Positions 97 through 35,499 of a stretch of 41,742 bases of DNA are shown here, piece after piece. Made by a program: the position numbers and the translations under genes. The notes beneath the pieces were generated by a model. That model ran no database searches, was not told where the DNA came from, and was given only the letters and a program-made list of their open reading frames with translations. Numbering within the stretch: position 1 is the stretch's first letter; every line of letters starts with the position of its first letter. The DNA comes from Catajapyx aquilonaris. Lineage: Eukaryota. The stretch covers positions 1 through 41,742 of the forward strand of contig JYFJ02003445.1 in assembly GCA_000934665.2 (NCBI GenBank). Direction: 5' to 3'.

Positions 97-447
97 GCAC
101 TAACTGGTGAGCTATATTGCTGCTGGAAACAAGGGGTAAATCACTCGTCAAGTCTGTTGTACGATATAAGGTCTGTTGTATGCTCAACTGCCAACTAGAG
201 GAGAGTACTAGTAGGTATTGTTAAAAATGGTGTCACTGGGAAATATTTTATAATGTTGCAACAAAGGAATTTGCTACCAGAAAGAGGCTGAAGACATCTC
301 ATTTGAAGTGGTATGAATCTGTGCCATAAGCAAGGAGTTTGATACCTTTTTTAGTTGCAAGATAAGAGTGTGGTCATATAGCCAGTCAATGAAGTTGAAG
401 ATGTTTCTTCATTTATATACTCTTGTTATCACATATCAATTTTCCAG

Positions 448-2497
448 GTCAGTGATTCGGGAGAGCGTCATCCAGAGCAAGCAGATGGGACGGCGTGAGA
501 ACAAGATCATTAATATTGAGGGTCGGGTTCAGTTTGACCTCTTTTTGGTCCTTCTACGTGACTACAAGCTTCGCTCATACTCACTCAACTCTGTCAGCTT
601 CCATTTCCTCCAAGAACAGAAGGAGGATGTCCACCACTCCATCATCACTGACCTGCAGAATGGGACAGCTCAAACTCGCCGACGCTTGGCAGTCTATTGC
701 CTGAAAGATTCTTTGCTTCCACTACGCTTGCTGGACAAGCTCATGTGCATCATCAATTATATGGAGATGGCTCGAGTGACTGGAGTAGCACTCGGTGCTT
801 TGCTGACCCGTGGTCAGCAGGTAAAGGTAATGTCCCAGTTACTGCGGAAGACCAAGGAGAGAGGGATGGTCATACCTACTACACATACACAGGCATCTGA
901 AGAACAGTTTGAAGGTGCCACTGTGATAGAGCCAGAAAAGGGTTTTTATAAGGAGCCAATTGCAACTCTAGATTTTAGCTCTTTGTACCCATCTATTATG
1001 ATGGCACACAATTTGTGTTATTCAACGCTGCTTCATAGTACAAGTGGGTTAAATGAGGATCAATACACCCACACTCCTTCCAATAATTACTTTGTTAAGG
1101 CTGATCTGTGCAAAGGGTTGCTTCCAGAAATTCTTGAGAGTTTGCTAGCAGCACGGAAGAGAGCTAAGTTTGAGCTCAAGAATGAAACTGATGAGTTTAA
1201 GAGAAAGGTGCTTGATGGGCGTCAGCTTGCACTCAAGATAAGTGCCAATTCAGTGTATGGATTTACTGGTGCACAAGTTGGAAAGCTGCCATGCATTGAG
1301 ATTTCACAGAGTGTGACAGCGTTTGGGCGCCAGATGATTCTCCAGACTAAAGAAGCAGTAGAGAAGCAGTACCGTGCAGGTGAGAATGGCTACCAGTATG
1401 ATGCAAAAGTAATATATGGGGACACTGACTCGGTCATGGTCAATTTTGGAGTCAAGACTGTTGCTGAGGCTATGGAGTTGGGTCGTGAAGCTGCTGGATT
1501 GGTCACTAAGCACTTTCCAGAGCCAATCCGACTGGAGTTTGAGAAGGTGTACTACCCTTACCTATTGATCAATAAGAAGCGCTATGCTGGCTTATATTTC
1601 ACACGTCCTGAGATACATGACAAGATGGACTGTAAGGGACTAGAGACAGTTCGGCGAGACAATTGTCCTCTGGTGTCCAAGCTCATCAACACATGTCTGC
1701 AGCGCATTTTGATAGACCGAGACCCTTCAGGTGCTCAGCAACATGCCAAGCAGGTTATTTCTGACCTTCTGTGCAACCGCGTAGACATCTCTCAGCTTGT
1801 CATCAGCAAGGAGTTGACCAAGACAGACAAGGAATATACTGCTAGACAAGCCCATGTGGAGCTGGCTCACAAGATGAGAAAGCGTGATCCTGGTACTGCC
1901 CCGAAACTTGGTGATCGGGTGCCATATGTGATCACGGCTGCTGGACGTGGGACGCCAGCCTACCAAAAAGCTGAGGATCCCATCTATGTGCTTGAGAACA
2001 ACATTCCAATTGACTGCCAGTACTACCTTGAAAATCAGCTGTCAAAACCACTCCTGCGTATATTTGAGCCAATTTTGGGTGAGAAAGCTGAGTCAATCTT
2101 ACTTAGAGGTGACCACACCAGGACCAAGACGTTGGTGACTTCTAAGGTTGGTGCGCTGTCAGCTTTCACTACAAAGAAAGCAACATGCATTGGGTGTAGA
2201 GCAGTTCTGCGAGATGGAGGCTCCAGTGATGCTATATGTGAGCATTGCCGTGAACGGGAGGCTGACATATACATGAAGGAGGTTGTGCTAATGCGCACCT
2301 TGGAACACAGATTCTCTCGGCTATGGACACAGTGCCAAAGATGTCAAGGAAGCCTGCATGAAGATGTAATTTGCACCAGTCGGGACTGTCCAATCTTCTA
2401 CATGAGGAAGAAGGTGCAGAAGGATCTGAGTGACCAAGATGCACTCATCAGAAGGTTTGGCGACCCTGTACTCAACAAGGGAGACGACTTGTGGTAG
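448..2497 (+). CDS. POLD1: DNA polymerase delta catalytic subunit, terminal coding exon (5' exons lie upstream of the window)
   Basis: B-family motifs [17 protein letters not shown] and YGDTDS; exonuclease III region YCLKD; C-terminal CysA (CIGC..CEHC) and CysB (CQRC..CTSRDC). Acceptor TTTCCAG ends at 447, so ORF-track residues from 368-447 are intronic. Stop TAG 2495-2497; ATTAAA at 2585-2590. Confidence 0.97.
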
Positions 2498-3618
2498 ATG
2501 AAGTTGGGGGACGGGATCATGTTGGATCATTTGGGATATTTTTCATGTCCAATGTTTTTTTTATGCTGTATTCAGTTAAAACTAATTAAAGAATCGGTGT
2601 TTCTTATTTTTTGTGGTGATTGCAGCTTGTATTCGCACGGTGTGGAATTTACCTATTTTTTGTTTCAGGCCTGTATCATGTATGTCCAACTTATTTGTGA
2701 ATGGTACCATTAGCAAATGATACACACTATACAGTATTGATGGATTTTAAAATTAATGTTTACTGGATATTTTAAACTAGGATCGATCAATTTTTTCATT
2801 CACACTTGACTATCCCATTCCCTTGAGCTTGAATGCATCTCTGGAGTCATAGCCATGCTTCCCGCCGGTTTTCATCCTGGCACGACTGTTTTGGCGCTGC
2901 CGTCGCGCCATACTCTCCGATGTTTTGATGAGTGAACCCCCTGGTGGCGGGTGATGGTAAGCAGTGGGCAGAGGACGCCACCCTTCGAGTGGATGGTCCT
3001 TGTTCCTCCCCGGCATATTACGAACATCCCGCCTTCCTGGAGGATTGTTTTGTTTGTTTGTTCCGTGTTTGCGACCTTTGCAGGCAAATAGCGTGATTGA
3101 ACTGAAGGAGACTGTGACTGCTTGTTGTGGCGTCTGAGGGGCGAGCTGGGCGCATAGGAAATCCTTCCTTGGTCCTACTCTCCCTGCTGCCAAAAAGCGA
3201 TTCGCCGGGCCTGCTGGCCGTCTCTCTCCCTTTCAGTGCCAGCCCTCTTTGCGATAAACAGGTTGGTTCAGTGACCTCGTCGATTTGACTGGACGTGTCT
3301 CCTTTTCATGAGGAGAGGAGGTGCATTATTGGGCCCATGGAAATGTGCCAACGCTTGCGTCACATTCATGGGTGTGCATGGCTTTCATGTGTGGTTAACC
3401 TTGTTATTTTTATTTGTTGCCCACAAGGGACGGTTTTGTATGGGATGGTCTATAGAGCCAGTGCACTATGTGGTTGTGAGGTGCAGCATTGCAGATCGTG
3501 TGACACAAACTGGTCACATGGAGAATACTGATGATTCTTTTACGGTATTGTAGCCTGTAATGCAACGTGAGCATAATGCTGATGTGACAATGGGTAACAT
3601 TGTCAACAAGTAAAGTCC

Positions 3619-3704
3619 AATTGAATCGGTCATTTTGAAAAGGGGTCATATCCTCATTTGCTGCGCTGGAGATGACCCCCCTTTTCCAAATGACCGATTC
3701 AATT
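3619..3704. repeat. Inverted repeat/hairpin, ~31-bp arms and ~22-nt loop (mini-MITE or structured RNA)
   Basis: AATTGAATCGGTCATTTTGAAAAGGGGTCAT (3619-3649) pairs with ATGACCCCCCTTTTCCAAATGACCGATTCAATT (3672-3704), with one mismatch and a 2-nt bulge. Confidence 0.8.
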
Positions 3705-3817
3705 AAAGGCTTGTGGTGATGGTACTATTCCAAGGCTGAATACTTTAAACGGTAACCTAATTTGACTGAATTCCATCCAGCAGGTGCAACACATAGAGTA
3801 TAGCCTCAGGTGCATGC

Positions 3818-6800
3818 ATGGAGTGTGAGAAAACACCACAGCGGAGGCAGGCAAACAATGCCAGAGCCAGGTCTGCAAGGACAATTCGACGGCCTTCTAG
3901 ATTTCTTGACAACCAAGGTGATGATGGTGACTTGTCCAGGAAAGACGATGGTACTATTCAACTCCAAGGAAAGAGAAAGGTGGACAGTGCCAAGCGCATC
4001 CTGGAGGTGGATGGCATAAAGTGCCTGACCAATTCAGAATGCCCTATCAGTGAGGGAAAGATTATAGTGAGAACCCCTAAAAGATCAGAAAATGGTGAGT
4101 GCTGAGGGTGGGAGAACTTGCACTAAAGTCACTAATACGAGTTTATTGACTATCCTATATTAAAGTCACTGTCAGTGCCTTAAGTACTTGGGCATGGACT
4201 TATTTTGACCGGAAGTGCTGACCTTGAAAAAATTGCCGTGTGTGAGCTTGCAGCAGCAAATGACAATACAGTCGGTTAAAGGATTTCCTTACCACATGAG
4301 GTGAATAAATTACCCTCCAACAGAGGTGCTGCTTCCCCCTGATGCAATGACTCGCACTCCTCTAGCTAGCACCTCTGTTGGAGGCTAATTTCTTTGCATC
4401 ATGTGGTAAGGAAATCCCTTAACCGACTGTACATGGACCGGTTTCACTGAGCCCAGTATATTATAAATCCGAGTTTCTTTTCGAAAAATCTTCGGTTTTC
4501 ATTGTTGACAACAATGGTTGCTATGGGAATTCTTGTTATAACTGAGATTCTAAGTTATACTGAGCTCATTGAAACTGGCTGTGTGTTGGGGGGAACTTTC
4601 CTACATGAGAGAAAGATCTGATCATAATAATTGACCCCAACAATGTGCAGGAAAAACATTCCAAAGCCTGCCCCCTGTAACTAGACAACCACTTCGACTT
4701 GTTACATGACATTTCATGGAGCAACCCAGATATCTGTTACCTCCCTCCCAAGAGCCGGCAATCCCAGTTGGCCCATCATGATCATAATGAGGCCAGTTTT
4801 GTGCAACAACGAGCTTTAAAATGTGTGTTCTTGGGTATGTAACACTGCTTGATATGAAGAAGCTGCTTTCCTCTCAAAGTAGCCTAAAAGAGAGAGCAGG
4901 AGCAGTGCTTTGCCAGTTGTTCATACACATGCAATCCTGGTGGTCTTGTCTCTCCCTGTTTTGGCTTAAATTATAAGATTATTTTGGACATGCTTTTCAG
5001 TGAAAATGTTAATATTTTTACTTTATAAAAAACTGAGAAATCAATTAAAGTTACAAAATCTTGCTCGCAGATGCAATGTAGAAAAAACTATATTTAGGAG
5101 TGCACTTTTTGTGGCAATGCTTGCTCATTATTGTTGTATCATGTATTGTCAAAGTCACTATTTCCCCCCATTGTTTGCCACCTTGGTATGCCAATTCCAC
5201 CAATTTCTGGTTCCCCTCCTCAACCACCACCACGACAAAATATTGGGTCGATAATTTAACTCAGATACCATTCTGGCTAATTAAGACAGTGGAATGAGTC
5301 ATTTTGGAATAGGAAAGGATAGCAAGATAGGTGTGGCATGGAAAACATTACACAGTCACATGACCTGTCTGGCTGTCTCTAATGCACTGCCGTAACCATC
5401 ATAATTGAAGGTTACATGTTCCAAGGTCAAAAATGATGACCTTTTGTGCCGGGATCAGTTCAATAAGCATAGGAGGCACTAGTATTGGTGGCAGTTAGAC
5501 TTTGTCTCAGACCATTTCTTTTGTCCTGTGTATTTAGTGTTGGGGAAACAAGAGGCAAAAGTGGAAGCAGAGAGTCCAGGTGGCCCACTCATGGAGAGCC
5601 CCGTCATGGATTTGTTCCCTCAAACACAGCAGCAAATGTACCAAAATGGAACTTCCCCACAGTGCAACATTGTATGGGACTGTAACTCCCCGCAGTATCG
5701 TGATTCTGTTGCCCCATCAACTCATGGTGAGTCCTTAACTTTTAAATTCAGTGACCTAATTGAGTAAATCATGGTAGGGTACAAGTGTCTATGTAACTAG
5801 TACACTTTGTTGATAGGGATGAGAACTGGAGGAGTATTTCATCCGAGAAGGTCACAGAGAGAAATGTCCACTGTCACTTCACCACATTGTGGGCATATGT
5901 GTCCTCCAAAGACCATGGCCGCAGACACTGTGACAATGGATAGCAAAGGAGCATCAAGAGTGAACAATGGAGAATTTACTTCCGAAGCAGCTGTGTTACC
6001 TTACAAGAATCCAAAAAAGGCTTTGGCTGGAATAGGTCGCATCAGTGCAGACCTTCAGTCCATTATTGGAAGTGCTGCATGTGATGGTTAGCTTGCTGTT
6101 ATTGTCATTGTCATTGTCATTATGTGAGTATTATACAAAATTACTTGTACAGGAATGGGAGAAGAAGAGGAAAAGGAGGAGGAAATGTTTACATCTGAAA
6201 AGAAGAATGCAACACAGGCTGAAATGTCTAGAAACAGGCTAAAGGGAGGCTGTGAGTTTGAGGAGACACCATCTGCGTTGGACAGTGAGAGGAAGAAAGA
6301 CCAATCTGAGAAGGACTTAGACCTGTGGAGTGAAGACTTCAAGGATGAGGATGACTGGATGTTAGCAGCTGCAGCAGCTGAGCGCATGGATGTTAGTGAA
6401 AATGGACGACAGCAATTACTTACAAGACTACCACCTGTGAAGACAGTACCTAAAGCTGTAGGGAAGACACCTACTTCCTTTGGCTCCAATTCCCGCACCC
6501 ATTCTCCCAAGTCTAATCCGCAACTGAAAGGAAAGCGGCTTGTTTTTTTAGACACTACTATCATCAAAACCAACCAAAAGGGAAAGGAAAACAATAACCA
6601 GACACACAAAGGGCCAGTAACAAGTAGTGATAGAGTGACTGCAACATCCATAGTCAATTCCAAGCTCAATCGCAAGGAACTGTCAAAGAAATCAGAGCCT
6701 GGAGCCAAGGTTTCTCCTCAAGCAGGTCCATTGTGTACATCCACTAGTACACACACTTCCACTGCAGCCAAGTCTGCAACAAAAAGCAATGACATAGCAG

Positions 6801-8304
6801 AAAAGAAGGGGCACATGAGGGAAAAGGATGAGTGGGAAATGCTGTTTGGACAGGACTCAGATGATATGATTTTCAGCCAAATTGCCATTCCATCTGATGA
6901 CAAGCTTCTACAACCCAAGCGGGCAACCTCACCATCAATTCTGCAGACGTTGAAGCCAAGTGGTAGGTGATCATGTTGCAAGCAACAATAATTTGAATGG
7001 AATCTTTCACCATTTGTGTGATTTTTAGGGAATGATGTTACTCGTGAGATTCCAAAAGCTGCCTCTTCGGCCAAGAAGTGGGGACGTGGGGCCAATAAGC
7101 CTCTTGGAGCACCAGTGCCACCCAAAGATTCCAAGCCTCAGCAGCCCCAGTTGCAACAGCAAGCTGTCCATGACCCGTGGGGTGCAGATGATGATGATGA
7201 GGCCTTTCTTCAGGAACCGCAGCTTCTCAATTTGCTCAGTCAAGCAGAAGGTGAGTATCAGTTATTGACAGTTTATGGGTGACACAGTGGTGTAGTGGTT
7301 AACGCCACAGCCTTCCACCTCCAAGGTCCCGAGTTCGATCCCCAGGTCGGACGAAGGATACTTATGTGGATAGTTTCGATGGGTTCTCTCTGTGTTTGCG
7401 GGGATTTTCTCGGGGTTCTCCCGTTTCCCCCTGCAATCAAAATCCATCACACCGCTGGCTATGATTAAAGATGGTTCAAGAAAAGATGATCCCCTAAAAG
7501 GCCCAAGGAAGCCTATCACGGGGTTTCGAAAAAAAAAAAAAAATGACAGTTTAAGCTTACCACAGCATTTTCCAGGTGAAAGTGAGTAATCCGTATTAAA
7601 AGCATTATTGCCAATATTATGTTCACTAGGTCTTTAAATTCAGGTACACCACATAGATTTTAATATTGCACAGAGAAATAGGTTAACTTTCATTTTAATA
7701 TTGACTTTTTCATAGCGTAATCTGTGTTTGGGATCTGGGTTTAGGATCTCCTGGATTTAGCCTCCATCTATTTATGCACACAAAGGCACAAGGCCAGAAA
7801 TTAGAAAGTACCATACGTTATTCTTGCCTGCATACCATTGCATTGTTTAAAATTATGGTGTTGACTCCAATCTGCAGTAAGTCACACGCCTAGTTTTAAG
7901 TAGTCAAATGTTGGAAAAAATATTAGTACCTACCAAGAGTATTGCAACTTTGTACGTATAGACTACGCTTTATGGAATGTAAGTTTTTCTCATAAATTTC
8001 GTGGAACTACTTGCAAGGTTGAATGCTGCATGGATAAGTGCATAGAAAGTAATGATAATAGTGTGCTTGGAATAGAGTAAAGATTATAATTAACTTCTTG
8101 ATTCTAGGTACTCCTGAAACCAAAGTGGCAGCACCGACTTGCACTCCCCTGGAGATTGAAGCTAAGAGACTGCTGGCTAAGCAGCGACTACAGGCCAAAA
8201 GGCTGCGAGAGCAGCGATCTAAAGGCTTGGCCCTGCAACCTCGTCCCTCTGCCACTGCACCTGGACCTGCTCATCTGCCACCTGTTAAGAGGGCCAAGCC
8301 TTAA
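3818..8304 (+). CDS. ETAA1: ETAA1-like protein (putative RPA-binding ATR activator), ~654 aa
   Basis: Exons 3818-4094, 5538-5726, 5817-6086, 6153-6962, 7029-7250, 8108-8304. All introns are GT-AG and phase 1, joining into one open frame of 1965 nt. Motifs: RTPKR; TSPQCNIVWDCNSP (cf. human ETAA1 QNDIFWDQNSP); acidic-hydrophobic DEDDWML, DSDDMIFSQI and WGADDDDEAFL; C-terminal CTPLEIEAKRLLAKQRL (cf. CSPEEIQRKRQEALVRR). Gene structure is well supported; orthology is inferred from short motifs. Confidence 0.75.
4267..4431. mobile_element. TA-flanked MITE, Tc1/mariner (pogo/Tigger-like) type
   Basis: TA|CAGTCGGTTAAAGGATTTCCTTACCACATGA...TCATGTGGTAAGGAAATCCCTTAACCGACTG|TA; ~60-bp imperfect TIRs including CCTCCAACAGAGGTGCT/AGCACCTCTGTTGGAGG; TA target duplication. 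Confidence 0.85.
4438..4578. mobile_element. Second, older MITE-like inverted repeat
   Basis: CCGGTTTCACTGAGCCCAGTATATTATAAATCCGAGTT versus the reverse complement of AACTGAGATTCTAAGTTATACTGAGCTCATTGAAACTGG; ~38-bp degenerate arms; no clear TSD. Confidence 0.55.
7276..7543 (+). mobile_element. tRNA-derived SINE with V-domain-like core, poly(A) tail and 10-bp TSD
   Basis: A box TGGTGTAGTGGT (7288-7299); B box AGTTCGATCCC (7332-7342); core GTTCTCTCTGTGTTTGCGGGGATTTTCTCGGGGTTCTCCCGTTTCCCCC; 3' stem-loop 7491-7523; A15 tail; TSD TGACAGTTTA at 7266-7275 and 7544-7553. Confidence 0.9.
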
Positions 8305-10328
8305 ATAATGCCAATCATCTGCATTTTCATGATTCATCATTCAGTGTGCAGTGAAAAGTTGAGAGTAAGCATTCAAGGATGTACAGTAGTCCCAAACTTG
8401 GGCTTTTCTCATCTTAGTAACTGCTCAATGCCTTCTAGGATAGTTCCTAATGAGCTTCCAGGACATAAGGGAACACAGCATGTGTGTACTAAAATGTTTG
8501 GCTGCTTCTGTTTCCACTATGTTTGAATCAATGCAATGTAACTATTCTGTGAATTTGAGGCAACTATGTTACCTGAGGCACACAGAATGTGGAAATATGA
8601 GGATAAAATTGATTCAAAAAAAAAAAAAAAAATCCAGATAAGAGTAAATAAGGGTAGTCACTAAGGATACTGGCAAGTATTACTGGGACCAACCATTGTC
8701 AAACAGCTAAGGTTGTTGCCAACAAAAAGAATGAAACCAAAAGTTCAGAATTTTGCACCCCCAAAGTCTTCCTTGCCAAACAGTAGGCTCCCTACAATAG
8801 TGTAATATGTATCCTTATTGTTTCATGTGCTATCCACCAGAGTAAAAATCTGAAATTAAGTAGGGACAGAAGCAATGAATAAATGCATCAACCTACCAAA
8901 AGTACTATTGAATATTCAGAATGCAACCTGATTGACTTTCACCTCTTGACAATCATCAAGTTCAGTGAGCTTCCAAACTCAACGTTTACCTCTAAACCTC
9001 AGAATTGAGGTCAGATGTAGATAGAGTTCTTCTGTCTTCTCTTGAAACTTTGCAGTGCAGTTATATTCATGTTGCCTTTTTCATAGTTCATGTTGATATC
9101 ACGTGCCTTTATTTTATTGTTAGTCAAAATAACTGTGTCCCACTCGACGGTCCCACTACACACAGCCACTTTTCAAGCAGAGTCACTGCATATCATAAAA
9201 TGGTAAACATGACACAGCTGACTTGTAGCAAGTATTATGTTGGCACTACAGCTGCTGAGATTGGATTTAATGCAACAAAACTGTTGTCAGTGGTTACTAA
9301 TTTTACTTACAGGTACTAATGGCAAGTGACCTCGAGGTTGCAGTAATAATAATAATTTGACAGTGTAGTATTGGAATAAGCTGTAAAAATAAAGGCACAT
9401 CAGAATATATGGGTTGATTCAAAAACAATACTTTAGTATGCCTTATAATAAACCCACCTTTTCTGTGTTCGAGGAGATCATTCAATGCTTGTTAAATATA
9501 CTCAGAAAGTGCTGTATACAGAATGTAGTGAAGTAGTACTTGGCAAAAGGTTAAGTTAATATTTAAGTTTCCAAAATGAAATGGTTGATTTCAAGAATAT
9601 GAAGACTTCTCTCACTTCTACAACATTTCCGTAAATACCTGGGAACTATGGTGGCACAATATCATTTGAGATTTATTGTAATGCCAGTTGAAATTGATAT
9701 GTGTTGTTTCTCACAACCTGAGTAAAGGATGTGAAGGGAAACGTGAGAATATTAATATTAGTTGTGTAGATATTTGTAACCAGTGTTTATTTAGACTAGA
9801 GAAATGTTTGTGAAATACACATAATTTGTCAATATATTGTTTCTGTGGCAAAAATGCTATTTTGAAAGGATGTCTTTCACTGTATAAAAAACAGGGTGTA
9901 AGATATTGAAGATGTTACAATCATTAACTGTTTCTTTATTTTATTGCTGTGGTGATTTAACAATAAGGACAGCTTTTGGTGGCACAACATCATGTTTTTA
10001 TTGTACTTACAGTAGATGTGGGCAGGCTGCATCTGCTCTTGTCTGTTATGAGTCAAAGATCAGAGTGTGCTGGATGGGTTGAGTGCATAAGATGTGCACT
10101 GTTGCAACTACAGCTACTTTTGGGAGGGGATAATCCAATGATAGGCCAACCTTTAGATTGGAAAGATGATTGGATGGATGGATGGATAATTGGATGGATG
10201 GATAGTTGCAGGCAATGGCACCTGATTGGCACCTTAATTATTGCTTTTCTTTTCAAGTGCAATCCTCTGAAGCTCTTCTGCTTGGTTGCTTACATGCATG
10301 TGTTAACATGTGAAACAACAACAGGTCA

Positions 10329-13300
10329 TCACCAGAGGGTGCACTTCTCTCGGGTTGGGTTCATTGGTGAACCAACAGGGCACTGAAAGGCCTCAGCAAA
10401 CTCTGGAGTGTTCATCAGCATACCATTCACCCTATACAAAAGATATTGTCATCAAATGACATGTGGAGGCTGATGTGTGCGAGGTAATTTACCTTTCAGG
10501 ATGTGGTGTGTGTTCATCTAGTTCTAGGAGGAACACGTAGGCCATTGGACTCATCACAGAGCAGTATGCCTGAAAATCAATGTAGTCAATGTGATTCATC
10601 TCAAATATGTAATAATGAAACCTCTCAAGTGATTGGACACTCTGAAATTAATTGTAAGGTCTTCTGCCTAACAATAGATCTCCCAAGTGCTTTTCAATTA
10701 TGAAGGATTAAAAGTGCCTCTTTACAGGCTCGTGTTCTGTTGACTATTGCTCTAAGTATAATAGGGAAAAGTTCTTAAATCACATAATTGCCAAAAATCA
10801 CAGAACCAACTTTATCCTCGAATCTTTCATAAAATATTATGATCTATTGCATCTTAATACCTGTGCAGTGCTGAGAAAGAATAGCTGTGTGGTGGTCATG
10901 TTCATCCCAGGTAGAAGTGGCTGTGGACCATGCTCCTCTTCCCAGGTGTGGTATGCCCTCAGAGCATACTTCAATCCCCCCAGATCAGCTGTATTCTCAT
11001 TGAGGGTGAAGTTGCCATCGAAGGAAAGCACGACTTTCCGACCCTCATACATCACTTCTCTGGCCGAAAAGAACGATCCTGTCCCTGAGGATGACGATGA
11101 GAAGTGATTGGCCAAGCAGGACGAGTCCCGGAGGAATCTTTCCTTGGCTTCGGCGGACCACCACTCCCGCATGGTTCCAGTGGCATCAAACGCATGTCCG
11201 GCTCCATCAAAACCATGAAGGACTTCATGTGCAAGGGTGCTGCCCATGGCCCCAAAATTGAGATATGAAGGCAATCCAGTCCCAAAGTGTGGCTCCTCCA
11301 GCAGTGCCATGGGCACCACAATGCTGTTGAACTGCTGGATGTAAAATGCATTAACCACAAAAGGGAAGGTAATGAAGGCCCAGGTGACAGTGGCTTTCTC
11401 AACAGGTTCCCGGTATAGCTCATACAGCTGCCGACGAAACAGGCGGTACATCTGCATCACATTGCCGAAGAAGTCCGTCGGATGTAGATCAACTTGAGAC
11501 ATGCTCTCATCCAGGTAATCTGGGTCATCATAGAAATCTGGTGCCACCAGGTTGGCCTTCAGCTGCTTCACTTTCCGGACTGCTTCAGCACGGGTGGTGT
11601 CATCCATCCACTCCACTTCAGACATACCCTCCACAATGCTGCCCCTCACACGCTCAAACAGCTCTGCCATCTTGGAACAATCAGAATACAATTGCCATGT
11701 GTACTGATAATAAATTGAAGATAATTCACCTGTTTCCTAGTGTTGGTCAGCTTCCGAGGACTAAAGTGCTGCAGATAGAGACCTGAGAGAGCCTCACCGA
11801 ACCCTGCAGATGTAGCTTGTACACAGAATCGCCACCTCTCCCCTGCACCTTCCTCCCCGGCCATCTCCTGCTGTTGTGACATAATCGGAACATGAGTCAG
11901 CTCTTGCAGCACGTCCCTCCCGTACAATGCCAGCATGGTGTTGTACAAAGTCCTGCAACACCGATTCATGTTAGAGGCCAGGTTACTATGTCATTTTGTA
12001 CCGCATACCTCGGATCGGAAAACTTGACGAGAAGGCTCAGTCGACGGAAGTAGTCCGGATAAGAGATGTAGATTGGTTCGTTTCCTGTCAGGTTGACTCC
12101 CATAAGTTCCTCCAGAAACGGCTTCCATTGCATCTGCAAATGACAAAAATACGGTTAACAAGATCTTTACAGTTTTCATCTGTTCTACAATTATGACGAT
12201 AAATAACTCGCATAATTGACATGATGTGTACTATATCAGGCATGGTGTGTTTATGTTTACTCGTTGTGCACAGACCGATTTGGGTCAGTCTGAAAATTGC
12301 GGTCAAAATATTGATTCAATGATGGTTGCGGCTCTACTAGTTAGTAAAATAAACCGCTGTAGAGCAGGAACATTTTGTATGTCATATACTGCACATACTT
12401 TAAGAAAATGACACAAATTCATCAGTACGTGCCTGCGGTCCACCTTTAAAATATTAATGAACCCGACAGACTTATTAAGCTTGCTTTCATTTGAGAAGTC
12501 ACGAAATCATATACTGCAAGCAGGGATTACTTACGAAGTTATATTTCCTTTGAAGCTCGTCCAGAGTGAAAGCGTTGTATATCTTGTTCTGCTGCTCCCA
12601 AAGCTTCCTTTGGCGAGGCCCTGGCACGATCTAGTTACGAGAAGAGAATTCAAAATGAGTCTCTTCTTACCAAACCCATATTAAAGCAAGTCTCACGAAA
12701 CGGAAACTGTCGCATAAAAATGAGAATTGCACGTACTTGATTTGAATATGATTTGCAGAATATCCGCCCATATTTCGAGCGTGACTGCGTTACGAACTAG
12801 GAAAGCTTTCAAGCGAAATGAGACCATAAAGAAATATTTCATGCAGACTTGATTCCCCAATGCAGTTTATAGGTCATGGCAATGTAATGCTCAAAATGCT
12901 ATTTGAATTGCTATTGTTTTTACAGCTCGCTTCAGTTTCAATAACTCGTGCGACCTTTAAAATGTTAAAGGTTCTTTGATGTAAATACCTGCTATCTTCT
13001 CGGTATGTGAAATGTTGTGAAAATGTCTTTAACACTGGAGACGTCTGTTTCTATTCAGCGCTTGAGTGTGCTTATAGACCCTTATTGGGTTACAACCTGA
13101 CCTTTGAACTAAACTATTTTTTGCAATATGGCATCAGTTTATTTTCCTATATAAAATTCCCATGTGTAGTGACGTCTTATTTATCTGCAGCCACGAGAGA
13201 TTTACTCCTCCAATCCCCGTATTGACAACCATACTATATATAGCAACTGTGATGAAAAAGCTTGCTATAAAGGAACCAACTTACTCAGGCCTGATTGCCC

Positions 13301-16300
13301 CCAAAGCCTATGGGAGCATGTGGAGGCGGCCCAGGTTTTCTTAGACCAGGAAATATACACCAAAATCGGGTCAAGGCAAGCTGTCAAATGCTTATTACAT
13401 GTATAGATATACGAGGTCACATTTCATGGGGACCTCATGTATATTTGACTATTGTATTGCGGGCGTACCGATTATTGTTTTCAATTTTGGGAGCTTGGTG
13501 TAGGCCTGTAGGGCAAGAGTCACGCACCTTTGGTAGAGATATAAATAAGCCCGATGGTCAAAAAGCAAATGGGATAATTCGGGAGTCGATTCTTATCGTG
13601 ACCTCCAGAAGGCACTGCCCGTGCATATCCGTCAATCTGTGTCTCTGGAGGAAAAAGGTAGAAGGGAGGAAAAAAAATGCAATTTAGTCCAATAAGGCTT
13701 CTCGTGAGGTCGGTGCTAATGAAGTTATAGACCCATTGTAGAACTGTAGAAACTCTGAACTTCCACCTTATGACCTCTTACTTTTGAACATAGGCGCAAA
13801 ACTTCTGACCTATTGCAGGTGCAATTAGCGTATGCACTGCAGCAGTGCATTATTCGACGGTATGACGCATAAATGCTCGTATGAAATTCCATAATCAACT
13901 GACGAGACTACTTTTTACGGACTAATTAGCGCGCATTATGTATGAAAAGTTGGTGTTATTGGGATACCCCCCATTTGCGCTGGAATAATTGCAAAGCCTG
14001 GAGAGAAGCAATATGCATTCTAGTCATTATGTAACACCCTCGTTAGTGTCAAGGTGATGGAAGGAGACTGGAAAAGAAGAAAGGGAAGGTAGGAGTAAGG
14101 TCGATATTATAAAAGTGACTGAACTTAAAGATCAGCGAATCAATGTAGTAAACAATTAATGGTCGCTAATTGACAAGTAAGAGACAGGCAACAATTAGTT
14201 GAACTGAAATGCCCACTTCATTAAGGGCCAATTATAACAGAGTGCGTCAGCAACGACGTGACCTTTACGCCCGGTCCTCATTTTTCAAGGGACATAACAC
14301 GCTGTATTTTGCACTTGAAGACCATTATCACAGTAACTCAAACCGGCCTAACAAATCCAAAATTATCATATGTACAGTACAGTGCAATATAGTGAATAGA
14401 ACAAGAACCCCCCTGGAAGTTTGCCGGTTTAAGTATAAACCTTACATATACGTCCCCTAAACTAAGCCCAGTGAGATTATCATAATTGAAACTGTGGGCT
14501 TTAGAGTACAGTAAACTATAAAGCGCTCTTAAAGCGTTGAGCTCTACTGTGAAGCTCGACTTATTTTTGCATCGTACCGTACACGCATTCGTTATAAGCA
14601 CATAACCGATTTTTTTTTGCTGCAATTATGGCACGCCTGCAGGCTAGCACCTCATCAGCATTTTCCAGTGAATGCTCTGGCGAGTTTGCAATTTGGTATG
14701 ACGAGAGACGGCGAAAAATTTGACGATAGTTTTTTTGATTCCGCATCAGAGAACAAACTCGTCGGCTGTGCGGGTAATCCCTATACGTTTCATTCGGATT
14801 TCACCAGTTGCATTCCAGCTATTGTTTGAACTGTTACCTTTTGGGCAGATAAAAAGTTTGGGAATTACAGTGCTGGTTACCCACAGGAGGATATCCTATA
14901 CTCCCTATGGGCTAGAAGTGGATCACTTGCATTACATTTGTTTATCCAATCGAATTTGAAGTTGACTGAGCTTAATTGAAGCTTAACAGTAAGAGCCGAC
15001 CTTCATCAGCCCTGATAACAAACAGGCATTTTGTGAAATTAATAATGCACACAGCGAATGCCGAATAATCATGTTGGCATTATTAGTCAATTCTCATCAC
15101 GGTTGACAGGCACTCCCTAGGTGATATGTGATGAATTGTGACTCGTGAAATCGAGCTTGACATAGTTGTGGCTATTGAAATTGATTGGCTTCGGCTTTCC
15201 TTAATCACATCATGAACTGCACAACTTTATATGAACTAGCGCAGTCGCGCCGATTCTATGAGTATAAATCCGAAACGTAATTCGTGACTAGCCGTTAAAA
15301 TTTAATCAGCCCGAATACGTCATTTGCTTTAACTAATACCTCCTGCCTTAAGCAATGTATGTAGAAACTGCCAGTAAAATACCGGCTCCTTTGAAATTCT
15401 CTTTTCAAGGGTTTCATTACTTCTTCATACATCCCAACCTGATTGGAACGAGCGAACGGCTCCCGTAAGTCGCCACGCACACAAAGTTACCCAAAGAACC
15501 CCCTAGGTCCAAGTTCCTTTCTAAGTATTTCCCCTTATTCATTTTAATATCACAAGGTCAAGCCACAGTGAACAAGTCAACGTAGCCTAGTTGTTGCCCA
15601 AATAATACCCTTACTCTGGTTGCTAACTGAATTATGCATATGGGCAAGCGATCAATGACGGATGCTCAAGAGAACAGCCATGAATGTTTTACATACATAC
15701 TAGGGGCTTGCTTGGTAACACTAAACCTTTGTATCATATACCCTGTGAAACTGCGTGGGATTTGATCCGGATGTATCGAATAACGTAACGTAATGAGGTC
15801 TTACCTGTTGTAGAGCAGCAGCCATAGCAGTAATCCGCTTCAGCTCTCGACGGAATTGATCATGTGGCACCTTGTGTAATTGCGCAAACAATATGATTTG
15901 CTTCTCCAGTTCGGCTTGCTTTTGTCTCTGGACCGATTCCTGCAAATGAACGTACATTGTATTTATGTAAGCAACAAAAAGCTGAGAATAATTAGCATTA
16001 CCGAGAGCATGTTGTACAACTTCTTTCGACTCATCCCTGGACTTGTGGCGTTTGTGTCGTCTTTGCTGCTGCCATTAGTACTTCGCATGTCGTCTGTTAC
16101 GTTGTACTGCTTTTGCTGCTTGTCTGTCTTGTCGTCATCCTCTTTTGGCTCTTCCTCCATGTCTTCCTCCTCATCTTTAGGGCCAAGAGACTGCGAGACA
16201 CGGAGACTGGGTCGTCTCGAAGGATTGGGCAGACGTCGTTGCAAACGAGCAGCTTGTTGCTGCTTCTGGTTGTTCTCATGCTTCATGTTGGCCACTTCTG

Positions 16301-17658
16301 CCATCTGAAACATATCGCGGCGGTGGAGTCTAGGCAAATTGACTACCAGTTGACACGCACCATTCGGTCAGCCTGTGCTTCCCGTCTGGATCTGAGCAAC
16401 GACGGAATCAGGCCGTACTGTCTGGGCAAACCCAACAATAGGGCAAATCGGGTGTTGTTGGTGACATCAATGTCGAGTGTCACGTCGAAAAGAGGTGCCC
16501 CGTTGACCCTCAGAAGGCGGGTGAGGAAATCAGCCAGGTTCCATGGACGCTTCTGCACCTCTACGTCCCATTCGGACTGGCTCATGTAACCACCCAAGTC
16601 CTCAAGTACTTGAAGCACTACGTGACGTCATGACGTTAATATAATTCAGAGTATACAATGGACTGAAGTAATACCTTGTTGATGGGCATTGTCGGTGAAG
16701 TTGGCTGAATAGAGACAGCTCCTATAAAAATCCTTCAGCTTATGGAAAGCCTGTAGTTCGTCATCTCTTTTGGGGGCCTCCAACAAACCTGCAATAAGTC
16801 AACAACGTCATTGTTCAAGGGCGAAGCAAAAGTTCGAGTTTGTGAAAGGCAGAGAAAAATGAGGCTGAAATCCGCCTTTTCACATCGAGTTGGACAACTC
16901 ATTTATTGAAAGATTGGAGCGGTTCTAGAAAAGCCAAAGTTCTAAGGTCGCCACGAAAGTTCAAGAGCCTGGTGCTCAAAACCAACCCTTGATTTGACGA
17001 TGAACGTTGTCCCTTAGCTCGTTGAGATTGATGGCATGGTAAAGCTGGTCAGGGGGGAGCTGCACTTGTTTCTGCCAACCTCCACATGCATGTTGAAAGA
17101 AGTTTTGGCAAGGATCGGTGTCCGGGTCAGAGTGCGTGAGCAACCGATGGGCCACCAGCACGCACTCTTTCGACACGCACAGAGGCGTCGTCGGCTCTGA
17201 AACTATCCGTGGTGTCGTGTATGCCGAGCAACATGACTGCAGTAAAAGGGTGGTCAATATCTTATTAATCAGAGGCCACTAGATGTATATACCGGTGTGA
17301 AGGTGTCCGAATCGTCCAGAGTACAAACTGGTAGCCTCTGGACCGGATGAGCATAGTTGGTGGCCAGGGCATCTTGTGTCCTGTACCACAGGGCAGCTCC
17401 CAGGGTAAGGAGCGTGATGGCCATGAGAAGCAGAGTGGTAAGGAATAAGAGGAGCTTCTCCAGAGCGCTTCTTCGTGCCCACCACCAACCGTGTCCGCCT
17501 CCAGAGGAGCTGCCCGCTGGTCCAACCTCCTCGATCTCAATATCGGGCATCTCGAATGCTTGCTTAGTGTTGGGCATCAGCTTTCTTTTGGCCCCATTCT
17601 TGTTGATAGGAGGGAGCTTCTTCTTGATGGGAAACACTTCGCCTGGCAGCGACGACAT
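10329..17658 (-). CDS. M13 family zinc metallopeptidase (neprilysin/endothelin-converting enzyme-like), type II membrane, ~952 aa
   Basis: Exons (minus) 17658-17293, 17236-16987, 16788-16675, 16617-16361, 16304-16002, 15939-15805, 12630-12535, 12133-12009, 11952-11730, 11670-10861, 10569-10493, 10431-10329; 2859 nt in frame. N-terminal TM (LLLFLTTLLLMAITLLTLGAALWY), PCQNFFQHACGGW, VNAFY, HEVLHGFD (HExxH), ENTADLGG (ExxxD), HTP..ERVNG and terminal CTLW. Confidence 0.93.
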
Positions 17659-19512
17659 GATTGCGTCACACCTGACGGCAATCGGGCAATGTGTGAAACG
17701 TTTGACATGAACAGGTTAGCCGGTTGTAAATCAGAGCAATTGGCCATTTGATACGTGTTTCATGGGCACGCAATGGGAATTGTTACAAAGACACGATGCA
17801 ATGTTGGAAAATGAAATATATTTACTCGCTGAGTGTAAAATACTGAACCCCAGGCGTGCTATGAGCAAAGCCTAATAAACTGCATATAGCCAAAGCCATT
17901 ATGTTGATATGTCATATTTCTCTTTAGAACTATAATGCCACATGGTTAAGTACCAGACGGTGCTGAAAATGGCCTGCGTGACTTGTCACATTCTCAACGT
18001 GGCCACAATCCCTTTTCGCCCGAAGAAATGTACAGTATGTATAGCCTCATTTGTCAATGACTTCTGAAGATGGAGCACAAACATAACCTTCTAGAGTTGT
18101 AACCATGTTGTACGACGTGTTGAAGTGAATTACTCTTCCAGACACCATATAAAATTGCTGCCATGTTTATATGATTAGATCAAATCGATGGCCAATCGTA
18201 TAGAGATCGCAGATACAACCTGACACAGACATTTAACATTGATGTGCTCTTCGATGTGCTCACTATAATAACAAGAGTCCGCCAGCTTTTATATAGATCA
18301 ACAGAGTTACCTACTGGAAAGTCTAATTATAGACTTCACTAATCCTACAATAATACGTATGTATAATCATTCTGAGTTATTTATTAAGCATCTGGAGAAC
18401 ACCTCGCCTCCTTGATTGCATTTTACGTACTTATGCATTAAGTGCTTTCAAGGGAGCCTATAGCGACACTGCATAATCATCCCTTATTATTCTCAAGAGA
18501 CGCAGGGAACGCCGTTCTAGTTGCGTAATTTGCGGTGGCGGGACTTAGTAAGTAATTACATTCGGTTCAAATAGTCTATAAAATTTTAAGCGACCGGTAG
18601 ACTTGTATCCCGCGGTGAAGCCCATGTACTCCACCCTCACATGATTTCGCAACCCACACTCGCCTACGGCCTATATGAACAGGAAGTGGTAATTAAAGCT
18701 GATTTGCATACCACCACACTGTACTGTACCAAATATGTATCAATCTCACCAGCCATATTTCGCAAAGGCGCATATACGATTTTCGGGCCACTTTTTAGGA
18801 AAGCCAGAGATGGTACTGATAGTAAGGCTATTTCTTCTCCGCATAAATCATGTCAGTTGAATTTCCTCTCTATATCTCCGCAGTTACAGTGCAGATAGGT
18901 GTATGCCCTTCGGCCACAACTGCCGAGCCAAGGGAGAAGACGCAGTTATTCGCCGCAAAAGTGTCAGGCATGCCCTTTGGCAAGATGAACAGAGATATGA
19001 AGGCACGGTACAGGAGACTATCTTTATTTTAATGCTGAGTGATGTTATCTATGGCATGTATGGTGACGGTTTTTATCTTAAGAAACGGGGAGAGTGGTTT
19101 TTCTTGCCCTGAAAAATCCTGAATTTATTTTATAATTTCGTTTCCAATAAGCATAGCAATTATTAATCCTAATTACTCGTACGGCACTTTTCATCCATCA
19201 CCGTCAACATTCTGTATTTCGTACGTTATTTTTTGTGAACCATTAAGCCAGATATCGTTTAAATACATTTTTAAAATATTGTATTTTTATGAGCAAATGA
19301 ATAACTAACATAATGATTAAAAATCAAACAACTGTACAAGACAATGTACCGGTACTGTAACTTGTATAGGCATAGTTGGGTTAATAAAGAAAGTCTCCTT
19401 TATCTTACTTTATTGAGCTCAAGGTAAATCATATTTTATGTCCCGATTTTTAATGAATGCATAATATCGGCATGACACTTTCCACAATGTAATTAATAAT
19501 AATAATAATATT

Positions 19513-19599
19513 GGGTGGAATTTTCGTCCCACTGATAGCCATGGCCAACACTGGTACTGATAAGTTAGCAGTAGCTATCAGTGGGACGAAAATTCCACC

Positions 19600-19600
<1 letters not shown>
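19513..19600. mobile_element. 88-bp mini-MITE with perfect 27-bp TIRs, inside an AAT/ATT microsatellite
   Basis: GGGTGGAATTTTCGTCCCACTGATAGC (19513-19539) / GCTATCAGTGGGACGAAAATTCCACCC (19574-19600); flanked by ATT on both sides. Confidence 0.8.

Positions 19601-19673
<73 letters not shown>
19601..19673. repeat. (ATT)n microsatellite, about 24 units
   Basis: Directly visible; a shorter (AAT)n run lies at 19495-19510 on the other side of the hairpin. Confidence 0.97.
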
Positions 19674-19676
<3 letters not shown>

Positions 19677-35246: not shown

Positions 35247-35499
35247 CAACTGCCTTTGTTGGTGGTGGTGGTTGTTGTGATTGTGCCTCCTCCACCTCGC
35301 GGTCACTTCCTCTCCTGACATGCCAGTCGCGTGTGAAAAAAGGAGGGGTGGAAGGGTGTTGGAAGGGGTCAAAAGGTCAGGTGGGTGCAGGGGCGATGGG
35401 GCGATGGAGGGAGTGTTGGCCCTTGGTTTCGGGCAAGTGGAGGTCCCTCCTGGTCCCACTCAGCTACTGTCGGCCATCGTCGCGGACTGAAGAGTGTGC

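What the first reader, a model, noticed from the sequence alone, without database searches (positions are those of the whole stretch)
3818..8304. Hidden six-exon ETAA1-like ATR activator in an invertebrate genome
Seen: six GT-AG exons join into a 654-aa frame that the ORF track shows only as unrelated fragments. The protein is mostly low-complexity but has three ordered motifs: TSPQCNIVWDCNSP (nt ~5651-5692); acidic-hydrophobic patches (DEDDWML, DSDDMIFSQI, WGADDDDEAFL); and CTPLEIEAKRLLAKQRLQAK near the C-terminus (~8140-8199). Known: vertebrate ETAA1 activates ATR independently of TOPBP1 through a Trp in DIFWDQNSP with a CDK SP site four residues after the Trp. It binds RPA70N with an acidic motif and RPA32C with a C-terminal CSPEEIQRKRQEAL helix shared with XPA/SMARCAL1/TIPIN. 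Motif order and W-x3-SP spacing match here. Inference: this is a divergent arthropod ETAA1. ETAA1 is characterised in vertebrates and, to my knowledge, not recognised in Drosophila, so this would extend the RPA-ETAA1-ATR branch to this lineage.
Basis: partly seen in the sequence, partly recalled or inferred. Interest (0 to 1): 0.8.

Follow-up and report, generated by a model that had tools for sequence, protein, structure and literature searches.

The report
Expressed gene with ETAA1-like motif layout
A real, spliced and transcribed gene encodes a mostly unstructured 654-residue protein that carries, in the right order, the short motifs by which human ETAA1 touches the ATR kinase and the RPA protein, but no sequence-profile search could confirm that it belongs to the ETAA1 family.

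Summary
Six GT-AG exons (3818-4094, 5538-5726, 5817-6086, 6153-6962, 7029-7250, 8108-8304, + strand) join into a 654-codon frame, and all five introns are phase 1. Spliced contigs of one public run join 4 of the 5 introns exactly at the predicted sites.

The protein is hydrophilic and low in complexity. Three motifs match features of human ETAA1 that I read in papers:
- I137-V138-W139-x3-S143-P144 matches human I105-F106-W107-x3-S111-P112.
- W566-x5-D-E-x-F-L matches the human RPA70N motif W600-x5-D-D-x-L-L-Y.
- T602-P603 opens a confidently predicted helix (603-627) near the C-terminus, like the human RPA32C motif that holds S894-P.

The tryptophan lies in a symmetric exon, as in human exon 2.

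Every homology search was blank. Pfam ETAA1 did not match the single exons or a read-through of exons 2-5. The protein-database, PDB and metagenome searches found nothing relevant.

Verdict: probably a divergent ETAA1-type, RPA-tethered ATR activator (about 0.6), supported by motifs and not by homology. Interest is moderate.

The parts
3778..3817 (+). Transcribed 5' untranslated part of the start-codon exon. It holds an in-frame TAG at 3794-3796 and an out-of-frame ATG at 3814.
   Evidence: Contig record 1 lies on 3778-4093 and has 176 further letters upstream that lie outside the stretch laid. Sequence read.
3818..4094 (+). Coding exon 1 (aa 1-93). Basic and acidic low-complexity N-terminus with a full CDK consensus, T86-P-K-R.
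   Evidence: Junction 4094>5538 is bridged by a contig.
4267..4431 (.). Hairpin repeat (MITE-like) inside intron 1. Not part of the protein.
   Evidence: 64-nt arms, 91% complementary. Raised contig depth with many mismatches.
5538..5726 (+). Coding exon 2 (aa 93-156). It is 189 nt long with phase 1 on both sides, so it is symmetric. It holds three SP sites upstream of the tryptophan motif.
   Evidence: The 5' junction is confirmed. The 3' junction (intron 2) is not bridged by a listed contig.
5669..5692 (+). ATR-activation-domain-like core: I137-V138-W139-D-C-N-S143-P144.
   Evidence: This pattern occurs only once in all six frames of the window (83,480 codons) and in 2.6e-4 of composition-preserving shuffles. 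Human I105, F106, W107, S111-P112 were read.
5817..6086 (+). Coding exon 3 (aa 156-246).
   Evidence: Junction 6086>6153 is bridged.
6011..6076 (+). Possible amphipathic helix (aa 221-242). It is a candidate for the helical or coiled-coil part of the activation domain.
   Evidence: AlphaFold2 single-sequence model predicts a helix at residues 65-86 of the exon 3 piece, but pLDDT is only 50-57.
6153..6962 (+). Coding exon 4 (aa 246-516). Long hydrophilic low-complexity stretch.
   Evidence: Both junctions are bridged. No Pfam family matched.
6326..6367 (+). Acidic-aromatic patch 1 (W304...W314-M-L-A). A second candidate RPA70N-type motif.
   Evidence: 5 of 6 loosely scored contact positions relative to human W600; the +9 position fails.
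6833..6886 (+). Acidic-aromatic patch 2 (W473...D-D-M-I-F-S-Q).
   Evidence: 3 of 6 positions in the W-anchored register. Holds an SQ site.
7029..7250 (+). Coding exon 5 (aa 516-590).
   Evidence: Both junctions are bridged.
7178..7210 (+). RPA70N-motif-like stretch: W566-G-A-D-D-D-D572-E573-A-F575-L576.
   Evidence: W, +6 D, +7 acidic, +9 and +10 hydrophobic, as in human W600, D606, D607, L609, L610. Occurs only once in six frames of the window, and in 0.4% of global shuffles and 1.1% of 40-aa block shuffles.
7272..7543 (.). Interspersed repeat (SINE-like, ending in a poly-A run) in intron 5. Not part of the protein.
   Evidence: Summed contig depth is 586 against 2-6 on the exons, with many diverged contigs. 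Sequence read. ARAGORN calls no tRNA there.
8108..8304 (+). Coding exon 6 (aa 590-654) with stop TAA at 8302-8304.
   Evidence: Junction 7250>8108 is bridged.
8143..8220 (+). RPA32C-motif-like element: T602-P603 followed by a basic amphipathic helix (aa 603-627).
   Evidence: AlphaFold2 predicts a helix at residues 13-37 of the piece, with block pLDDT of 95-98. The human RPA2-WH motif of ETAA1 holds S894-P.
8281..8301 (+). C-terminal basic cluster (P-V-K-R-A-K-P), a likely nuclear localisation signal.
   Evidence: Pattern scan. Its function is inferred.

Best explanation
The locus is an expressed gene with six coding exons. It encodes a 654-residue, largely disordered nuclear protein built like ETAA1, a chain of short linear motifs.

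Proposed mechanism (inferred, not shown):
- The C-terminal T-P-capped helix (603-627) docks on the winged-helix domain of RPA32.
- The acidic-aromatic stretch at 566-576, perhaps helped by those at 304-317 and 473-490, docks in the basic groove of RPA70N.
- Together these tether the protein to RPA-coated single-stranded DNA.
- There the I-V-W strand (137-139) binds the FAT domain of ATR and stimulates the kinase.
- CDK phosphorylation of S143, four residues after the tryptophan, tunes this activity.

The gene is most likely a divergent orthologue of ETAA1. At the least it is a functional analogue.

Shown here: the gene model, its transcription and splicing, the motifs and their order, and the C-terminal helix. 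Inferred: every binding event and the orthology.
For: 1. Gene reality. The frame is 654 codons across five phase-1 GT-AG introns, and 4 of 5 junctions are bridged by spliced contigs.

2. Activation-domain core. Here it reads I137-V138-W139-x3-S143-P144. Human ETAA1 has I105 and W107 packing on ATR FAT, F106/W107 essential, and S111-P112 as a CDK site that potentiates activation. The pattern I-[hydrophobic]-W-x3-S-P arises in 2.6e-4 of 200,000 shuffles. It occurs once in 83,480 six-frame codons of the window, in this gene.

3. Gene structure. The tryptophan lies in a symmetric 189-nt exon. In human ETAA1, disrupting the exon 2 splice junction gives an in-frame deletion that removes the tryptophan.

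4. RBM1-like motif. W566, D572, E573, F575, L576 have the spacing of human W600, D606, D607, L609, L610. Chance is 0.4-1.1% in shuffles.

5. RBM2-like element. T602-P603 precedes a helix at 603-627 with pLDDT 95-98, 52 residues from the C-terminus.

6. Order. The motifs run AAD, then RBM1, then RBM2, as in the ETAA1 domain diagram described.

7. Other RPA32C binders. No Pfam domain matched. In particular none of the TIPIN, SMARCAL1, XPA, UNG or RAD52 domains matched (domain names recalled). ETAA1 is the only binder on the list that, to my knowledge, has no folded domain.

8. Sites. SP/TP sites (14) and SQ/TQ sites (5) are numerous, including T86-P-K-R.
Against: - Pfam PF15350 (ETAA1) matched none of 6 single exons at E up to 10. 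It also did not match the 570-residue read-through of exons 2-5.
- phmmer of exons 2, 3, 5, 6 and of the read-through against PDB sequences gave no ETAA1 or RPA-fusion chain. Entry 8JZV, an RPA70N-ETAA1 fusion, dates from 2023, so it should be in the copy.
- A full HMMER search with exon 2 over 1.84 billion proteins gave 6 hits. None is ETAA1-like. Five of the 6 are bacterial Big_4/SLH repeat proteins whose repeats hold V-x-W-D-G-G-x-P-x-Y. This shows that the W-D-x-x-S-P-like string can recur by chance.
- Position -1 is V, not the aromatic F106 that was mutated together with W107 in human.
- The upstream SP site is at -7, not -12.
- Only one low-confidence helix (pLDDT 50-57) follows the tryptophan, where human ETAA1 has three ATR-binding helices and a conserved F198.
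- RBM1 positions +11 and +13 do not match.
- The motifs were found post hoc by a reader looking for anything of note, so the shuffle figures overstate the significance.
- No orthologue could be examined for conservation.
Confidence: 0.6

Rival explanations
1. A lineage-specific, intrinsically disordered nuclear protein unrelated to ETAA1. Its likeness to ETAA1 comes from short linear motifs that arise easily in acidic, serine- and proline-rich disordered sequence.
For: - No homology signal of any kind was found.
- W-x3-S-P alone arises in 4.1% of shuffles.
- Bacterial Big_4 repeats share much of the string.
- The protein-language-model search put exon 4 nearest to BRCA1 disordered fragments at only 0.76, which is generic disorder.
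- Several ETAA1 details are missing: F at -1, S95 spacing, three helices, and Y and A of RBM1.
Against: - Three independent motif classes co-occur in the ETAA1 order within one protein.
- The stricter activation-domain pattern is rare: 2.6e-4 in shuffles, and once in 83,480 window codons.
- The RBM1-like spacing is at 0.4-1.1%.
- The tryptophan exon is symmetric, as in human.
- The C-terminal helix is predicted with very high confidence and is capped by T-P, as in human S894-P.
Confidence: 0.25
2. An RPA-binding adaptor that uses RPA70N- and RPA32C-type motifs but does not activate ATR. The I-V-W-x3-S-P stretch would be an unrelated CDK-regulated site.
For: - The RPA-type motifs (566-576 and 602-627) sit close together at the C-terminus and look the most convincing.
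- RPA32C-type helices occur in at least seven unrelated proteins.
- The helical part of an ETAA1-type activation domain is not evident.
Against: - The I-x-W strand is the element shared by the TOPBP1 (I1143, W1145) and ETAA1 (I105, W107) activation domains, and it is present here with the S-P at +4.
- No other functional domain that such an adaptor would deliver was found.
Confidence: 0.12
3. Not a protein-coding gene: a transcribed pseudogene or non-coding RNA whose open frame is accidental.
For: There are no homologues, and contig depth on the exons is low at 2-6.
Against: A 654-codon frame is kept open across five introns of matching phase. The introns themselves carry 7 stops in the same frame over 222 nt. 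Splicing occurs exactly at the frame-preserving sites.
Confidence: 0.02

Closest known systems
ETAA1 (Ewing tumour-associated antigen 1), the vertebrate RPA-tethered ATR activator; Pfam PF15350
   Same: - Largely disordered, with no folded domain.
- An I-x-W strand with S-P four residues after the tryptophan.
- The tryptophan is encoded in a symmetric exon.
- An acidic-aromatic W-x5-D-[DE]-x-hydrophobic-L motif like RBM1.
- A [ST]-P-capped basic helix near the C-terminus like RBM2.
- The same motif order.
   Different: - 654 residues against 926 (human length recalled).
- V in place of F106.
- The upstream SP is at -7, not -12.
- The helices after the tryptophan are not evident.
- RBM1-like and RBM2-like elements lie about 25 residues apart, not about 280.
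- The Pfam family model does not detect it.
TOPBP1 ATR-activation domain
   Same: It also uses an I-x-W strand (I1143, W1145) that packs on ATR FAT.
   Different: TOPBP1 is a BRCT-repeat protein and no BRCT domain is present here. In TOPBP1 the strand is coupled to a following helix. TOPBP1 is recruited through 9-1-1 rather than through RPA32C or RPA70N motifs.
Other RPA32C (RPA2 winged-helix) binders: SMARCAL1, TIPIN, UNG2, XPA, RAD52, RFWD3
   Same: Each uses a single basic amphipathic helix as the docking element. A helix of that kind lies here at 603-627.
   Different: To my recollection each of them carries a folded catalytic or structural domain. None was found here. None of them is known to carry an ATR-activating tryptophan motif.
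ATRIP N-terminal checkpoint recruitment domain (RPA70N binder)
   Same: An acidic stretch followed by hydrophobic residues that binds the RPA70N basic groove. The stretch 566-590 here is of that kind and ends in an SQ site.
   Different: ATRIP has a coiled coil and a C-terminal ATR-binding region (mentions structured ATRIP with a zinc site). Here the motif is C-terminal and the protein is disordered.

Membership tests
ETAA1 (Pfam PF15350) | Significant match to the family's profile HMM | tested here: not met
   hmmscan against Pfam-A at E up to 10 found no PF15350 match for 6 of 6 single exons, nor for the 570-residue read-through of exons 2-5 with X at 7 intron stops. Two caveats apply. The joined full-length protein could not be submitted, and HMMER's filters drop weak matches.
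ETAA1 (Pfam PF15350) | ATR-activation strand: Ile at -2 and the critical Trp (human I105, W107) | tested here: met
   I137 and W139. Human residues were read.
ETAA1 (Pfam PF15350) | Aromatic residue directly before the Trp (human F106, mutated together with W107) | tested here: not met
   V138 is hydrophobic but not aromatic. Human F106 was read.
ETAA1 (Pfam PF15350) | CDK site S-P four residues after the Trp (human S111-P112) | tested here: met
   S143-P144 at +4/+5. Human residues were read.
ETAA1 (Pfam PF15350) | Second conserved CDK site upstream of the Trp (human S95, at -12) | tested here: inconclusive
   SP sites lie at -7, -26 and -34 and TP-K-R at -53. None is at -12.
ETAA1 (Pfam PF15350) | Helical or coiled-coil part of the activation domain after the strand (three helices, conserved F198) | tested here: inconclusive
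   One predicted helix at aa 221-242 with pLDDT 50-57. Human features were read.
ETAA1 (Pfam PF15350) | RBM1: RPA70N-binding motif W600-x5-D606-D607-x-L609-L610-Y611-x-A613 | tested here: inconclusive
   W566 with D at +6, E at +7, F at +9 and L at +10. Positions +11 (Q) and +13 (P) do not match, so 4 of 6 contact positions fit. Human residues were read.
ETAA1 (Pfam PF15350) | RBM2: C-terminal RPA32C-binding helix with an S-P site (human S894) | tested here: inconclusive
   T602-P603 and a helix at 603-627 with pLDDT 95-98. The residue-level consensus could not be compared, because no RBM2 sequence was available from a tool. phmmer against PDB chains gave nothing.
ETAA1 (Pfam PF15350) | Trp encoded in an exon whose loss keeps the frame (human exon 2) | tested here: met
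   Coding exon 2 is 189 nt with phase 1 on both sides. The human case was read.
ETAA1 (Pfam PF15350) | Binds RPA and stimulates ATR-ATRIP kinase in a Trp-dependent way | not testable with these tools
   No RPA or ATR sequence of this organism is on hand, since no genome is held. A complex prediction was therefore not sent.
ETAA1 (Pfam PF15350) | Reciprocal best match to ETAA1 of other animals; motifs conserved in orthologues | not testable with these tools
   No relative was found in any search.

The most novel reading that the evidence does not exclude
This is a true ETAA1 orthologue in an invertebrate (possibly arthropod) lineage. It would be so diverged that the Pfam family model and word-based searches miss it, and it would be reduced to the bare working motifs: the I-x-W-x3-S-P strand, an RPA70N motif and an RPA32C helix packed into the last 90 residues. 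That would mean the RPA-ETAA1-ATR branch is older than vertebrates. It would also mean that ETAA1 in other 'ETAA1-less' animals may simply be unrecognised, and that the minimal motif set defines what the protein needs in order to work.
Probability: 0.5. Interest if true: 0.6.

Novelty: new member of a known kind. Interest (0 to 1): 0.45.

Why it matters
The papers I could read treat ETAA1 as a vertebrate or human factor. One abstract speaks of 'metazoan cells' (the listing of PMC7994790). My six literature searches listed no paper that describes an invertebrate ETAA1.

If this gene is an orthologue, it would matter in three ways:
- It would place the second, RPA-tethered route of ATR activation outside vertebrates.
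- It would give a compact natural 'minimal ETAA1' for mapping which motifs are essential.
- It would show that motif-only, disordered checkpoint proteins escape routine annotation.

If it is not an orthologue, it is an ordinary, fast-evolving disordered nuclear protein.

Tried and rejected
Searches that came back blank or uninformative:
- Pfam on each exon and on the exon 2-5 read-through: no family.
- The search for homologous proteins with 'longer' lengths for exon 4, exon 2 and exon 6: nothing scored.
- The search of protein representatives with exon 2: 6 hits. Five are Big_4/SLH bacterial repeat proteins and one is a eukaryote-like repeat protein. I rejected them as repeat-summed chance matches.
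- PDB sequence searches with exons 2, 3, 5, 6 and the read-through: only chance rows (phytase, OLD nuclease, cyclodextrin glycosyltransferase) or none.
- ESM Atlas: exon 2 gave no usable hit. Exon 4 was nearest to BRCA1 disordered fragments at 0.76, below any useful level.
- Metagenome contig scans with exon 4 and exon 2: no relative.

Resources that were not available:
- Own genome: not held. I therefore could not search for a second ETAA1 locus, for RPA32 or for ATR.
- Earlier findings of the scan: none.
- RNA holders: the look-up of sequencing runs listed no run on record as RNA. The one run listed (kind unknown) nevertheless holds spliced contigs. No listed contig covers intron 2 or 5625-5867.
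- Rfam: 0 matches in the window. ARAGORN: 0 tRNA in 3500-8700.
- Papers not held: PMC5245861, PMC5063979, PMC5173396. The supplement of PMC8053108, which aligns the RPA2-WH motifs, could not be read. It may bear on the RBM2 comparison.

Other identities considered and dropped: TIPIN, SMARCAL1, XPA, UNG2, RAD52 and ATRIP. None of their domains was found.

Full report
**1. The observation**

The region 3818-8304 (+) was read, and its stop-to-stop frames were listed. The list shows the coding pieces only as separate fragments of 80-280 aa.

Joining 3818-4094, 5538-5726, 5817-6086, 6153-6962, 7029-7250 and 8108-8304 gives 1965 nt. That is 654 codons and a TAA, with no internal stop. All five introns begin with GT and end with AG, and all are phase 1. 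Introns 2, 3 and 4 are 90, 66 and 66 nt long. Exons 2-5 therefore lie in one genomic frame, but these introns carry 7 stops in that frame.

**2. Expression and splicing**

One public run (X1; kind not on record, kept as contigs) shares 32% of the sampled words of the stretch. When laid on 3500-8900, its contigs match the exons with 0-1 differences. They skip 4094>5538, 6086>6153, 6962>7029 and 7250>8108, each with GT..AG ends. So 4 of 5 predicted introns are confirmed by spliced molecules. Intron 2 is not bridged by a listed contig, and retaining it would stop the frame.

The first contig reaches 3778 and has 176 more letters that lie outside the stretch laid. This points to an upstream 5' untranslated exon that I could not place. 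An in-frame TAG at 3794-3796 lies ahead of ATG 3818.

**3. Surroundings**

- Upstream on the same strand, a 726-residue uninterrupted frame (317-2497) is the C-terminal part of DNA polymerase delta's catalytic subunit. It matches DNA_pol_B at 1e-157 and zf-C4pol.
- Downstream on the minus strand lie an M13 peptidase gene, a proprotein-convertase gene and MRP-S26.
- None of these bears on the finding.
- Intron 1 holds a 64-nt-arm hairpin repeat, and the 5' region holds a 27-nt-arm one.
- Intron 5 holds a SINE-like repeat with a summed contig depth of 586.

**4. The protein**

Mean hydropathy is -0.90. K, S, A, P and E are the commonest residues, and there are 6 Trp and 3 Tyr. There are 14 SP/TP sites (two of them full CDK consensus), 5 SQ/TQ sites and a C-terminal K-R-A-K cluster.

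AlphaFold2 without an alignment gave these results:
- In exon 6, a single helix at protein residues 603-627, with block pLDDT of 95-98. The rest is coil.
- In exon 3, only a low-confidence helix at 221-242, with pLDDT 50-57.

**5. Comparison with what papers state about human ETAA1**

I used only features that I could read.

- *Activation domain.* I105 and W107 form a strand on the ATR FAT domain. F106 and W107 are needed for activation. S95 and S111 are conserved CDK sites. P112 to L117 become helical in the S111D mimic (passages of PMC6891097; passages of PMC13468113). Here I137-V138-W139-D-C-N-S143-P144 has I at -2, W, and S-P at +4/+5. Position -1 is V rather than F, and the nearest upstream SP is at -7 rather than -12.
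- *Gene structure.* Targeting the splice junction of human exon 2 gives an in-frame deletion that removes the tryptophan (passage of PMC6446857). Here the tryptophan lies in a 189-nt, phase 1-1 exon.
- *RBM1.* Human residues 599-622 bind RPA70N through W600, D606, D607, L609, L610, Y611 and A613 (passages of PMC10479964). Here W566 is followed by D at +6, E at +7, F at +9 and L at +10. Positions +11 and +13 differ. A second candidate at W304 fits 5 of 6 loosely scored positions but fails at +9.
- *RBM2.* The human RPA2-WH motif holds S894 in an S-P context (passage of PMC8053108). Here T602-P603 opens the confident helix.
- *Order.* The motifs run AAD, RBM1, RBM2 in both proteins (figure legend).

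**6. Chance**

| Pattern | Global shuffles | 40-aa block shuffles | Six frames of the window (83,480 codons) |
|---|---|---|---|
| I-[hydrophobic]-W-x3-S-P | 2.6e-4 | 6e-5 | once, in this gene |
| W-x3-S-P | 4.1% | not run | not run |
| W-x5-[DE][DE]-x-[hydrophobic]x2 | 0.4% | 1.1% | once, in this gene |

These figures come from composition-preserving shuffles of the protein. They ignore that the patterns were noticed post hoc. The Big_4 result in section 7 is a reminder that part of the tryptophan string does recur elsewhere.

**7. Homology searches: all blank**

- Pfam: no ETAA1 (PF15350) match and no other credible family for 6 of 6 exons. The same holds for the read-through of exons 2-5.
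- Word-indexed search of 5.8 billion clusters, longer proteins, with exons 4, 2 and 6: nothing scored.
- Full HMMER search of 1.84 billion representatives with exon 2: 6 proteins at E up to 0.001. Five carry Big_4 and SLH domains, and one is a repeat protein. None carries ETAA1. Their scores come from repeated V-x-W-D-G-G-x-P-x-Y units.
- PDB sequences: nothing relevant in 5 searches.
- Atlas: no usable lead.
- Metagenome contigs: none.
- No genome is held for the window.

As a result, no ETAA1 sequence and no orthologue ever entered the session. A direct alignment, a profile-profile comparison, a reciprocal search and a conservation test were all impossible.

**8. Reading**

The gene is real. 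The best explanation is that it encodes a divergent ETAA1-type protein, tethered to RPA-coated single-stranded DNA by two C-terminal motifs. It would present an I-x-W strand, regulated by CDK phosphorylation at +4, to ATR (confidence 0.6). The binding steps and the orthology are inferred from motif likeness.

The rivals are:
- An unrelated disordered nuclear protein with chance motifs (0.25).
- An RPA-binding adaptor without ATR-activating function (0.12).
- A non-coding transcript (0.02).

By the Pfam criterion, family membership was tested and not met, so I do not file the gene as a proven member. That result lowers 'it is an ETAA1' more than it lowers 'it works like ETAA1'.

**9. Novelty**

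My six literature searches listed no paper that describes an invertebrate ETAA1. The papers read speak of vertebrate or human cells, and one abstract speaks of 'metazoan cells' (listing). From memory, which I could not check here, public databases do name ETAA1-like proteins in some non-vertebrate animals, so I rate this as at most a new member of a known kind.

The 'arthropod' label could not be tested. The intron-poor polymerase delta exon and the 66-nt introns fit such a lineage but do not prove it.

Noticed in passing
window 317-2497 (+): A 726-residue uninterrupted frame encodes the C-terminal two thirds of DNA polymerase delta's catalytic subunit (DNA_pol_B 1e-157, zf-C4pol 5e-21). The stop is at 2495-2497, about 1.3 kb upstream of the ETAA1-like start on the same strand. 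Two replication-related genes sit head to tail, which is probably coincidence.
   Followed up: partly
window 5540-7249 (+): Exons 2-5 all lie in one genomic reading frame, because introns 2, 3 and 4 are 90, 66 and 66 nt (multiples of three). Each of these introns carries stops, 7 in all. All five introns of the gene are phase 1, so any internal exon could be skipped without breaking the frame.
   Followed up: partly
window 7272-7543: A SINE-like repeat ending in a poly-A run lies in intron 5. Summed contig depth in run X1 is 586, against 2-6 on the exons, with many diverged copies. ARAGORN calls no tRNA in it although its head looks tRNA-like.
   Followed up: partly
window 3619-3704 and 4267-4431: Two hairpin (MITE-like) inverted repeats: 27-nt arms at 96% and 64-nt arms at 91% complementarity. 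The second lies in intron 1 and draws diverged contigs at raised depth.
   Followed up: no
window 3778 and upstream: The transcript contig that covers the start codon has 176 further letters 5' of 3778 that do not lie in 3500-3777. This suggests an unplaced 5' untranslated exon. A 4-codon out-of-frame upstream ATG (3814) overlaps the start codon.
   Followed up: no
window 10837-17278 (-): Exons of an M13 (neprilysin/ECE-like) metallopeptidase gene. Peptidase_M13 scores 1e-36 at 10837-11736, and Peptidase_M13_N at 16976-17278.
   Followed up: partly
window 24796-35459 (-): Exons of a furin-like proprotein convertase. The P-domain lies at 24796-25074 and the S8 pro-domain at 34998-35459, so the gene spans more than 10 kb.
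   Followed up: partly
window 37710-38240 (-): A 176-residue frame matches mitochondrial ribosomal protein S26 (MRP-S26, 4e-18).
   Followed up: partly
window 19450-19771: A long trinucleotide microsatellite reads as runs of isoleucine in both strands' frames.
   Followed up: no
proteins P0001-P0005: Bacterial Big_4 repeat units hold V-x-W-D-G-G-[ST]-P-x-Y-x-G. This resembles the I-V-W-D-C-N-S-P-Q-Y string closely enough to give repeat-summed E-values down to 2e-11 with a 62-residue query. It is a caution against motif-only matches.
   Followed up: yes
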